Positions 45,289 to 57,391 of a DNA stretch of 64,000 nt are shown piece by piece. This stretch comes from Eledone cirrhosa (taxonomy: Eukaryota). A program made the translations under genes and the position numbers. Under the pieces are notes generated by a model. The model saw only the letters and a program-made list of their open reading frames with translations. It searched no databases and was not told the DNA's origin. Where the stretch lies: assembly GCA_964016885.1 (NCBI GenBank), contig OZ024746.1:13764001-13828000 (forward strand). Direction: 5' to 3'. The stretch's first letter is position 1. Every line of letters begins with the position of its first letter.

Positions 45289-45688
45289 TGGTAAAAGGAA
45301 AAGAAAATGCTGACAAATTGTTCCCAGTGAAAAATAGTTTAACTAAGTATAAGTAAAAATTAGTAATAAGTATTGGTTAGTATTCAGTTTTGGTTTTAAG
45401 TTTTTACCGGTTGCGCATTTCTAATGCTTTTCAAAAATAATTTTGAGATAGAGCGCCCATGATGTTTGCTCTAATCTGATCAGTTTTGGAAATTCTACCT
45501 GTTTTATGTGAAAAAAGTGGCTCCAGATGTATTAAAATAAGTTTCGCGCCAATTCGTTTTGCAAAAATTCTTGTGGTCAAAACAATTTTGATTGGTCGGT
45601 AGAGGTCATGTGAATGTTAAAAATTGATTTTGCGCCAAATATAGGTTTGTCTCACTGATTGAGAAGTCACTGAAAAATTGTGTGAATA
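45289..45688 (-). mobile_element. Family D repeat abutting (TA)n, with variant HHR-like motif at 45402-45437
   Basis: Homologous to 55439-55870. Contains CCAAT and CACRTG motifs and UUU-UUGAAAA-GCAUU-AGA-AAUGC-GCAA-CCGG-UA-AAA. Confidence 0.7.
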
Positions 45689-45972: not shown

Positions 45973-46140
45973 TAGAAAGTGAGGTTTTTTTACAAAATGA
46001 AAAATAACCGAGGTGTCCTACACGAGTGAAAGGATAAAGAAAAAAAGATGAAATCGAAAATGCAACCGGAGTCTTATTTAAAAAAATATATATATTTTAA
46101 AAAAATAAGACTCCGGTTGCATTTTCGATTTCATCTTTAT
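45973..46140. mobile_element. Family E short fold-back copy
   Basis: Same terminus (TAGAAAGTGAGG) as 54990. Arms 46044-46079/46103-46138. Confidence 0.85.
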
Positions 46141-54880: not shown

Positions 54881-54995
<115 letters not shown>

Positions 54996-55125
54996 GTGAG
55001 GTTTTTTTTACAAAATGAAAAATAACCGAGGTGTCCTACACGAGTGGAAGTATAAAGAAAAAGGGATGAAATCGAAAATGCAACTGAAGTCTTATTTTTT
55101 TAAAAATATATATATTTATTTGGTT

Positions 55126-55163
55126 CCTTTACCGGTTTCGCAGTTCTTCTGCTTTTCAAAAGG
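55126..55163 (-). ncRNA. Hammerhead motif, U3-A8 core variant
   Basis: Reverse complement of 55239-55276. Confidence 0.72.
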
Positions 55164-55238
55164 TGAGTTGAGATGGAGGGTCTGTGGTTTTTCTCACATC
55201 TGATGTGAGAAAAACCACAGACCCTCCATCTCAACTCA

Positions 55239-55276
55239 CCTTTTGAAAAGCAGAAGAACTGCGAAACCGGTAAAGG
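55239..55276 (+). ncRNA. Hammerhead motif, U3-A8 core variant
   Basis: CCUU-UUGAAAA-GCAG-AAGAA-CUGC-GAAA-CCGG-UA-AAGG, followed by AAUAAA. Confidence 0.72.
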
Positions 55277-55344
55277 AACCAAATAAATATATATATTTAA
55301 AAAAAAATAAGACTTCAGTTGCATTTTCGATTTCATCCCTTTTT

Positions 55345-55438
<94 letters not shown>

Positions 55439-55441
<3 letters not shown>

Positions 55442-55870
55442 TAAAAAGGAAAAGAAAATGCTGACAAATTTTTCCCAGTGAAAAATAGTTTAATTAGGAA
55501 TAAGTATAAATTAGTAATAAGTATTAGTTAGTATTCAGTTTTAGTTTTAAGTTTTTACCGGTTGCGCATTTCTTATGCTTTTCAAAAATAATTTTGAGAG
55601 AGAGTGTTCGGGATTTTTGCTCTAATCTGATCAGTTTTGGAAATTCTTCCTGTTTTATGTGAAAAAAGTGGCTTGGAAGGTATTAAAATTTGGTTGGTTG
55701 TTGAATGTCACGTGAATAAGCACTATAAATTTCGCGCCAATTCGTGTTGCAAAAAGTTTTGTAGTCAAAACAATTTTGATTGGTCGGTAGAAATCACGTG
55801 AATGTTTAAATTGATTTTAGCGCGAACTGGTTTCGCGCCAAATGTAGGTTTGTAGATTTTCCGCTTGATT
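55439..55870 (-). mobile_element. Family D repeat with variant HHR-like motif at 55553-55588
   Basis: Homologous to 45289-45688. UUU-UUGAAAA-GCAU-AAGAA-AUGC-GCAA-CCGG-UA-AAA. Confidence 0.7.
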
Positions 55871-57391
55871 GAGTTGCAGTCATGTTGAGAGGTCAACAGT
55901 TCAGGTGTCTATTAAGACAAATATGTTATTCGATACATTATTCAATATTTTCAGTCATTTTCAAGAACGATTCTCTCAAAAGAACATCAATAACATCAAT
56001 AACAAAAGAGGTGAAATGATGTATAGTATTGTCATAACAACAAGGCGTGTGTGAGTCCAGATTGTACGTACTGCAAGGGGAATCCATTAGGTCCTGGCGT
56101 ATGGGATATTTGTGTACAAATATGTTTGTGCCCATCAATGTGCAATACATGTGTGCGTATGTGTATGTGTGCGTGTCGGCGCGTGTATATCTATAAACAC
56201 CTAAACTTTTTTGAAATGATCTTTGCTAGATGTGATTTGATAGATAGTTTTTGGCTTTGTTTGTTTTTCGACTCTGATGCTTATAATGAACTTGGCAATA
56301 TATTGTCAATTAATTTTGAAGGGTTGACCTTTGTGGTTTATTTTTATTTATTTTTTTATTATTTTTTTATTTTTTTATTATTGTAGTATTTTCTAATATT
56401 ATTTTTTATTATTGTAGTATTTTCTAATATTTTTATTTTTAATATTTTTTTAATATTTTTAATATGTAAATTTTTTAATATGTAATATTTTTAATATGTA
56501 ATATTCTTTCGTAATATTTTTTTTAGTTTTCTATTTTATTATTACTTATTATTATTATTGTTATTTTTTAGTTTTGTTTCTGATATATATTTTTATTAGT
56601 ATATTGAAATCTGCTCTCTATTTCTGCTTGATAGATAATCTTGTAGAGTAAAGACGGGAATAATAATACTCATATATGTATACTCAAATTTTTATACCAC
56701 ATTGAGAATGTTTTCCGTGAACATAGGCTTTGCAGAATTGATCATGTAGATTCACATGGATGTTTGTAGCTATTACATAAACATATGAATTTTTTTAAAA
56801 AACTAAACATAAGTTCATTAATTTTCACACACTATGGTTACTTGTCTCATTCAGGAATACTGATATTTACAATATAGTGGATGTTTTATAAATACATTAA
56901 AACATAGGGTTTTTACGCCTCGCATATATCTGGTTATTTTAAAATTTTTAAATTTTTTCTCTCGCTATATTTTTTTCTCTCTCTATATTTTTTTCTCTCT
57001 ATATATATCTCACTTACATTAATACTAGAGCTAAATAAATAAATAAATAAATAAATGTATCATTGATACATTTACTCAACAGACCTCCCACTACCTAATT
57101 TTCTATATATATATGTATCTATCTCTATTTCCTCTCTCTCTCTATATATATATCTCTTTCTGTTTCTTTACATGAAGTTCTTCTCTTTATCTATCTTTCC
57201 ATCTCTCTATTTTGTTCCATGCATTTCTTCTTCTTCTTCCTTTTCTTCGTTTTCTGTCTTTCTTTCTTTTTTCTCTCTTTCTTTCTCTCTGTGTACAATT
57301 TTTTCACTGCCATATCAACCTCTTCAAATGCAAGTCGATGTTATTACGGTATGTCGAATCTATTTATCTATAAAACTGTTTATATTGTATT

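What the first reader, a model, noticed from the sequence alone, without database searches (positions are those of the whole stretch)
55126..55276. Natural hammerhead core with compensatory U3-A8 swap
Seen: CCUU-UUGAAAA-GCAG/CUGC-GAAA-CCGG-UA-AAGG, with all stems perfect and both C3 and G8 changed. Established: C3-G8 is a tertiary Watson-Crick pair in the active HHR, and compensatory swaps retain some activity. The same UUGAAAA core appears in family D (45.4 and 55.6 kb), so it is not a one-off mutation. Standard CUGANGA searches would miss this whole subclass.
Basis: partly seen in the sequence, partly recalled or inferred. Interest (0 to 1): 0.75.

Follow-up and report, generated by a model that had tools for sequence, protein, structure and literature searches.

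The report
Swapped-core hammerhead in Penelope retrotransposon
This is a shortened, folded-back copy of an abundant animal jumping gene whose predicted self-cutting RNA has one internal base pair swapped (U-A for C-G); the swap is real and fixed across four related families, but it is already described in this kind of element and cutting is untested here.

Summary
The motif is real: a minimal type I hammerhead with U3 and A8, at 55126-55163 (-) and 55239-55276 (+). These are the two arms of one foldback insertion in (TA)n, not two events, and they cannot dimerise with each other. The element is a young Penelope-like retrotransposon (RT plus C-terminal GIY-YIG, Neptune/Nematis-type linker). The genome holds 11,601 exact family matches; 78 lack U3, 46 lack A8, none is C3-G8. 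Three sister families keep U3-A8 and the helix III palindrome while helices I and II covary and flanks are mostly randomised, which points to long selection on the fold. Against a simple story: family D (4,342 matches) also fixed A13C, helix I is 2-4 bp, U3 can mispair with A17, and one published mutational scan rescued only the G3-C8 swap. Natural U3-A8 cores were published in 2011 and, in Penelope elements, in 2014 (about 1,300 hits). This scan had already noted U3-A8 hammerheads elsewhere in this genome. New member of a known kind; cleavage untested.

The parts
54964..54989 (.). (TA)n target, left side
54990..55200 (-). Main arm: 3' end (pseudo-LTR) of family C Penelope-like element, 5'-truncated, ending at the long 3' end (with tail)
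   Evidence: 98.6% identical over 215 columns to the 3' end of the tandem element L180; end classes
55126..55163 (-). Minimal type I hammerhead, U3-A8 core (U3 at 55159; predicted cut after A17 at 55130)
   Evidence: cut site inferred from hammerhead numbering
55200..55202 (.). Foldback junction; centre base 55201
55202..55347 (+). Inverted arm of the same insertion, ending at the short 3' end (no tail)
   Evidence: 98.0% identical over 147 columns to L180
55239..55276 (+). Second copy of the U3-A8 hammerhead (U3 at 55243), the reverse complement of the first
55348..55438 (.). (TA)n target, right side, shared with a family D insertion
55438..56205 (-). Truncated family D Penelope-like copy (sister family), in three aligned pieces
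55553..55588 (-). Family D hammerhead-like motif: U3-A8 core, A13C, 3-bp A-U helix I
45402..45437 (-). Second family D motif, in a D copy spanning 45291-45676
45973..46135 (.). Second family C foldback insertion, truncated downstream of the hammerhead and so without it

Best explanation
The motif is the U3-A8 minimal hammerhead in the pseudo-LTR of a young Penelope-like retrotransposon, and it likely cuts the element's tandem transcript weakly, as a dimer and probably with help from the element's protein. Shown: full elements are partial tandems, pseudo-LTR, ORF1, RT-endonuclease ORF, pseudo-LTR, with same-strand hammerheads 4,677 nt apart and the first about 170 nt upstream of the ORF1 start. 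Inferred: two units pair through the self-complementary helix III, each completes the other's helix I, U3-A8 replaces C3-G8 to position the 2'-OH of residue 8, and the cut after A17 trims the RNA. The swap likely arose once in the ancestor of families C-F and was kept by selection. The window copy is a 5'-truncated foldback inserted in (TA)n; a read-through transcript would form one long hairpin and would not cleave.
For: Fixed in family C: 11,601 matches, reversed-pattern control 0; 78 non-U3, 46 non-A8, no C3-G8. PLE context: 24 of 30 endonuclease-bearing loci have the motif 1.2-1.7 kb downstream on the same strand; 775-aa ORF with RVT_1 (E 1.3e-06, just below the Pfam cut-off) and GIY-YIG (E 2.7e-06, above it); tandem L180. 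Sister families: 3,380 further U3-A8 matches with other helix II sequences, control 1; C3-G8 with the same helix III gave 10, control 145. RT-EN proteins of C, D and E are 54-57% identical; flanks are at shuffled level in 5 of 6 family pairs, yet core plus helix III is 16-18 of 18 identical. Five helix positions (I.2, I.3, II.2, II.3, II.4) change on both sides between families; free positions 7 and 17 vary (A/U/C; A/C/U, no G17). The 50-nt unit folds as a double hammerhead. Precedent: PMC4209133, PMC3088659, PMC11167929.
Against: No cleavage or expression data. Family D fixed A13C (99 of the first 100 listed; only 28 of 4,342 keep A13) and still spread. Helix I is 4 bp in C, 3 bp in a C subfamily (12 of 104 copies held), 3 bp in D and 2 bp before a mismatch in E and F. 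U3 pairs with A17 at probability 0.58 in the dimer model, like the presumed inhibitory C3-G17 pair. With 139 nt of context the dimer fold is not predicted. A pairwise scan rescued only G3-C8. Families E and F were found with a pattern that demanded the core, so their core conservation is partly imposed; no ORF was found for F. Hammerhead mutants did not impair insertion of a lizard PLE in vitro.
Confidence: 0.62

Rival explanations
1. The motif is a hammerhead-derived structure kept for a non-catalytic job (binding of the element's protein, RNA dimerisation through the helix III palindrome, or positioning of reverse transcription), and U3-A8 no longer supports cutting.
For: Helix III palindrome and helix II are the best-kept parts, also in family D with A13C. 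Helix I is eroded in D, E, F. U3-A8 was not rescued in one scan. Cleavage was dispensable for insertion in vitro and no RNA ends were seen at the cut site of a lizard PLE.
Against: U4, G5, A6, A9, G12, A14, A15.1, U16.1 stay canonical and H17 varies within A/C/U, as catalysis requires. U3-A8 is reported active in vitro (citing a paper I could not read).
Confidence: 0.25
2. The ribozyme is a decayed relic; C3U and G8A are AT-ward drift carried along by successful master elements.
For: Both changes are transitions toward A/T in AT-rich elements; D has a further core change; HHR-less PLE clades reach high copy numbers.
Against: Flanks are randomised between families while the core is kept, five helix pairs covary, and no family with a mismatched 3-8 consensus was seen among the motifs held.
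Confidence: 0.1
3. The motif is a chance match, or the palindrome is an assembly artefact.
For: Perfect foldbacks can arise in sequencing or assembly.
Against: 0 of 100 shuffles match; 11,601 genome matches; the arms end at two different family-wide ends and differ in a T/A run; inverted 5'-truncated copies are a described PLE feature.
Confidence: 0.03

Closest known systems
U3-A8 minimal hammerheads of Cercyon PLEs in Schistosoma mansoni (Cervera and De la Pena 2014, PMC4209133; parts 1-2 of 4 read)
   Same: Type I minimal hammerhead in pseudo-LTRs, U3-A8 core, short helix I, dimer design, mostly single truncated copies, pairs on opposite strands 100-700 bp apart.
   Different: Here helix II is 4-5 bp (7-8 there), there is no extra base after A9, helix III has a palindromic insert (as in their Drosophila, rotifer and shrimp variants), copies are near-identical and about tenfold more numerous.
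Natural U3-A8 hammerheads (Perreault et al. 2011, PMC3088659; section 8 and passages read)
   Same: Same covariation at positions 3 and 8, described there as first seen in nature.
   Different: A few examples there; here a whole retrotransposon clade, one family of which adds A13C.
PAc Poseidon hammerhead of Anolis carolinensis (Frangieh et al. 2024, PMC11167929; parts 1-2 of 4 read)
   Same: Pseudo-LTR hammerhead near the ORF start; two alternative 3' ends (tail); AT-rich targets.
   Different: PAc has C3-G8 and one ORF. Here both 3' ends fall at TATA-like words matching the (TA)n target, whereas PAc starts at a site without homology to the target.
Neptune and Nematis EN+ PLE clades (Craig et al. 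2021, PMC8557442; passages read, one supplement search)
   Same: C-terminal GIY-YIG, CX2-5CxxC linker, CCHH residues, (TA)n targets, tandem and inverted insertions.
   Different: Clade not resolved here (no reference tree). An upstream ORF1 overlaps the RT ORF in the -1 frame; the paper's Fig. 1 legend lists a frameshifted ORF1 as optional in PLEs, but I could not see for which clades.
Animal non-LTR retrozymes (PMC7229834, passages read; bioRxiv 10.64898/2026.07.22.740005, part 1 of 5 read)
   Same: Type I hammerheads with palindromic helix III that work as dimers.
   Different: Retrozymes are short non-coding tandem units; this family is autonomous with a 4.7-kb unit.

Membership tests
Type I hammerhead ribozyme | Core U4 G5 A6 A9 G12 A13 A14 A15.1 U16.1 H17 and G10.1-C11.1 | tested here: met
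   Family C; family D fails at A13
Type I hammerhead ribozyme | Watson-Crick pair between positions 3 and 8 | tested here: met
   U3-A8 in about 99% of 11,601 matches; the canonical identity C3-G8 is not met
Type I hammerhead ribozyme | Three helices around the core, supported by covariation | tested here: met
   Five pairs change on both sides between families; helix III forms only in a dimer; helix I only 2-4 bp
Type I hammerhead ribozyme | Fold adopted in native sequence context | tested here: inconclusive
   Predicted for 50-nt units, not for 139-nt dimers or longer monomers
Type I hammerhead ribozyme | Site-specific self-cleavage after H17 | not testable with these tools
   Needs an assay
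Rfam hammerhead families | Score at or above the gathering threshold | tested here: not met
   0 matches in the window, canonical-core motifs included
EN+ Penelope-like element | RT with GxKF and DKG motifs followed by C-terminal GIY-YIG | tested here: met
EN+ Penelope-like element | Partial tandem pseudo-LTRs carrying a hammerhead; inverted 5'-truncated copies; optional tail | tested here: met
   L180 tandem; 46 long ends, 29 short ends, 13 tandem junctions, 16 other of 104 copies
Neptune/Nematis PLE clades | CX2-5CxxC linker and CCHH residues at the endonuclease; (TA)n targets | tested here: met
   C-x4-C-x2-C at residue 645; C689, C692, H711, H728; feature list
Neptune clade specifically | Placement in an RT phylogeny with reference elements | not tested
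Non-LTR retrozyme | Short non-coding tandem unit without ORF | tested here: not met
   Family has intact ORFs and a 4,677-bp unit

The most novel reading that the evidence does not exclude
Four Penelope families share one self-complementary helix III, so their hammerheads can form mixed dimers, and family D, whose own core is broken by A13C, is a cheater whose RNA is cut in trans by the intact U3-A8 core of a sister family.
Probability: 0.06. Interest if true: 0.7.

Novelty: new member of a known kind. Interest (0 to 1): 0.25.

Why it matters
The swap itself is known. What this locus adds is scale and a natural comparison: about 19,300 pattern matches (both arms of foldbacks counted) in four sister families whose proteins, where seen, are only 54-57% identical, all on U3-A8, one with a further core change. 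Whether Penelope elements need their hammerheads is an open question; families C and E (intact core) against D (A13C), all recently spread, make a ready test set. The helix I/position 17 differences (A17 in C, C17 in E) also test whether U3-A17 mispairing limits U3-A8 ribozymes. Practically, it confirms that CUGANGA-only searches undercount hammerheads in such genomes.

Tried and rejected
An all-against-all blastn of loci timed out. The GIY-YIG fragments beside the motif in L031 and L025 belong to other elements nested in the same (TA)n tracts, not to family C. Dimerisation between the two window copies was rejected: opposite strands. Retrozyme identity was rejected: intact ORFs. The absence of C3-G8 revertants is not evidence of selection: from 40 C3 and 22 G8 single changes (counted by eye) about 0.08 doubles are expected. 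Per-site variation within family C was not used, because the motif was pattern-selected. Expression: no RNA holder listed. Contigs of four unnamed runs showed no variant at 5% or more within the motif in the deepest run except the first helix I base (52%); too few flank sites to make this significant, and one low-depth contig in another run differed at three core-adjacent bases. Snap-back priming by a hairpin at the junction is not supported: only 1 shared base. No hammerhead was found by a quick scan in the 3' region of a 46%-identical PLE in L085. Przybilski and Hammann 2007 and Lunse et al. 2017 were not held; what they show on U3-A8, A17 or A13 variants in PLE hammerheads is unseen. Supplements of PMC4209133 and PMC3088659 were not read and may list such variants. 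A13C with hammerhead gave no relevant paper in one search; a frameshift search gave only PMC8557442 and PMC5408684.

Full report
Observation. The motif is in the sequence as described. A descriptor scan found it on both strands with U3 at 55243 (+) and 55159 (-): helix I CCUU/AAGG, core UUGAAAA, helix II GCAG/CUGC, GAAA, a palindromic helix III (ACCGGU) and A17. The two copies are the arms of one inverted repeat, 55051-55200 and 55202-55351, 99% complementary, set between (TA)n tracts. A degenerate pattern matched 4 window sites against 0 in 100 shuffles; the other two are the family D sites, which share UUGAAAA but read GCAA at positions 12-15. Rfam gave no match anywhere in the window, although canonical-core hammerheads are present.

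The swap is fixed. The window lies in a 3.0-Gb genome (G000); the host was not determined. A 30-nt pattern with positions 3, 7 and 8 free gave 11,601 matches and 0 for the reversed control. With the preceding U required, 78 matches lack U3 (all keep A8) and 46 lack A8 (all keep U3). No C3-G8 copy exists among them, but about 0.08 would be expected from the single-change rates, so this shows fixation, not selection. Counts include both arms of foldbacks.

What carries it. An endonuclease fragment upstream of one copy led to 30 loci, 24 of which have the motif 1.2-1.7 kb downstream on the same strand. Longer stretches gave a 775-aa open frame with RT (Pfam RVT_1, E 1.3e-06, 28.7 bits against a cut-off of 29.6) and C-terminal GIY-YIG (E 2.7e-06, above cut-off), with GLKF, DKG, YLDD, a C-x4-C-x2-C linker and CCHH residues. 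These are the features given for Neptune and Nematis Penelope-like elements in PMC8557442 (passages); I did not resolve the clade. Upstream of ORF1 many copies have the pseudo-LTR with the hammerhead, and L180 is a complete partial tandem with same-strand hammerheads 4,677 nt apart, one stop in its RT frame, and the predicted cut about 170 nt before the ORF1 start. The window arms are 98-99% identical to its 3' end; the left arm has the long end and the right arm the short end. Of 104 family C copies held, 46 had the long end, 29 the short end, 13 ran into ORF1 and 16 were other or cut by the locus edge. Inverted truncated copies and an optional tail are described PLE features.

Is the fold selected? 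Family D has 4,342 matches. A looser pattern that excluded C and D found 3,380 more U3-A8 motifs with the same helix III (control 1), mainly two families, E and F, plus some mutated C copies. The matching C3-G8 pattern gave 10 (control 145). D and E have their own RT-endonuclease frames, 54-57% identical to C and to each other; none was found for F. Between family representatives the 100-nt flanks align no better than shuffles in 5 of 6 pairs (C-D upstream 0.66), while core plus helix III is 16-18 of 18 identical. Helix pairs I.2, I.3, II.2, II.3 and II.4 change on both sides between families, position 7 is A, U or C and position 17 is A, C or U. Core identity in E and F was imposed by the pattern; helix pairing beyond the first helix II pair, position 17 and the PLE context were not. 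This is the conservation pattern of a hammerhead, and it suggests one origin of the swap before the families split.

How it likely works. A 50-nt unit folds as a double hammerhead: intermolecular helix III 0.92-1.00, helix I 0.77-0.83, helix II 0.93-0.94, -22.5 against -7.5 kcal/mol for the monomer. Published minimal PLE hammerheads were inactive as monomers and weak as dimers (PMC4209133), and the lizard PAc hammerhead cleaved only with its protein (PMC11167929). I infer weak, probably protein-assisted cleavage of the tandem transcript that trims it upstream of ORF1. The window copy cannot do this by itself: its two motifs are on opposite strands and read-through RNA would be one hairpin of -247 kcal/mol.

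Evidence against. Family D fixed A13C (99 of the first 100 listed; 28 of 4,342 keep A13) and has a 3-bp A-U helix I, yet spread widely. Helix I is 2 bp before a mismatch in E and F, and 12 of 104 C copies lose its outer pair; in one unnamed run that variant reached 52% by depth. U3 pairs with A17 at 0.58 in the dimer model, the analogue of the C3-G17 pair presumed to inhibit cleavage (PMC3884650, passages); E avoids it with C17. In 139 nt of context the dimer is not predicted. A full pairwise scan of a type III hammerhead found rescue only for G3-C8 (PMC9901934, passages). Hammerhead mutants did not reduce PAc insertion in vitro, and PLE clades without hammerheads thrive. Nothing here shows cleavage or transcription.

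Comparison with what is known. Perreault et al. 2011 reported C3-G8 covarying to U3-A8 in several natural hammerheads and cite earlier in vitro activity (section 8 read). Cervera and De la Pena 2014 found U3-A8 in Cercyon PLE hammerheads of Schistosoma mansoni, made a descriptor for it and retrieved about 1,300 hits; they also describe opposite-strand pairs and palindromic helix III variants (parts 1-2 of 4 read). So the subclass is neither new nor unsearched. Przybilski and Hammann 2007 and Lunse et al. 2017 could not be read. The scan's own notes list U3-A8 hammerheads in retrozymes and other PLEs of this genome and reach the same verdict; no look-alike of this arm was returned. These are unchecked AI notes and are not counted as support.

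Verdict. Real feature, correctly read, fixed and probably selected, but a new member of a known kind. The residual value is the family set (C and E intact, D with A13C) as a test of whether PLE hammerheads must cut, plus a candidate -1 frameshift shared by C and E, a feature PMC8557442 lists as optional in PLEs. Interest 0.25.

Noticed in passing
L180 (-) 1949-5412; L182 (-) 3905-7431; L084-L087: Families C and E have an ORF1 (about 400-420 aa, 41% identical, no Pfam match for C) overlapping the RT ORF in the -1 frame, with the same in-frame slippery heptamer U UUU UUA in the overlap; the family C RT ORF has no Met for 162 codons. Candidate programmed -1 frameshift. Downstream hairpins are weak (-8.7 and -7.7 kcal/mol).
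   Followed up: partly
window 54990 and 55347; L090-L118: Both fixed 3' ends of family C fall at TATA-like words inside the element RNA, matching the (TA)n target, which suggests annealing-assisted priming; D shows similar ends.
   Followed up: partly
window 45402-45437 and 55553-55588; genome-wide: Family D fixed A13C and a 3-bp A-U helix I yet has 4,342 matches and tandem elements with RT-endonuclease ORF fragments.
   Followed up: yes
window 24297 (-), 24461 (+), 45217 (-), 57396 (+), about 5.4 kb (-): Several canonical C3-G8 hammerhead families in the same window, one pair again as a foldback.
   Followed up: no
L037 (two copies): Another U3-A8 motif with unrelated helices and a longer helix III, so probably a separate origin of the swap.
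   Followed up: no
window 55095-55110 and 55292-55307: A T-run/A-run just downstream of the hammerhead keeps its total length but shifts its T/A boundary between copies, and between the two arms of this one insertion.
   Followed up: no
window 33466-36783: A 20-bp tandem array of 166 copies with strong C-over-G skew.
   Followed up: no
genome-wide (one search list): Many family C matches come as close inverted pairs; read-through would give long perfect double-stranded RNA (window example -247 kcal/mol), a likely substrate for editing or silencing (inference).
   Followed up: no
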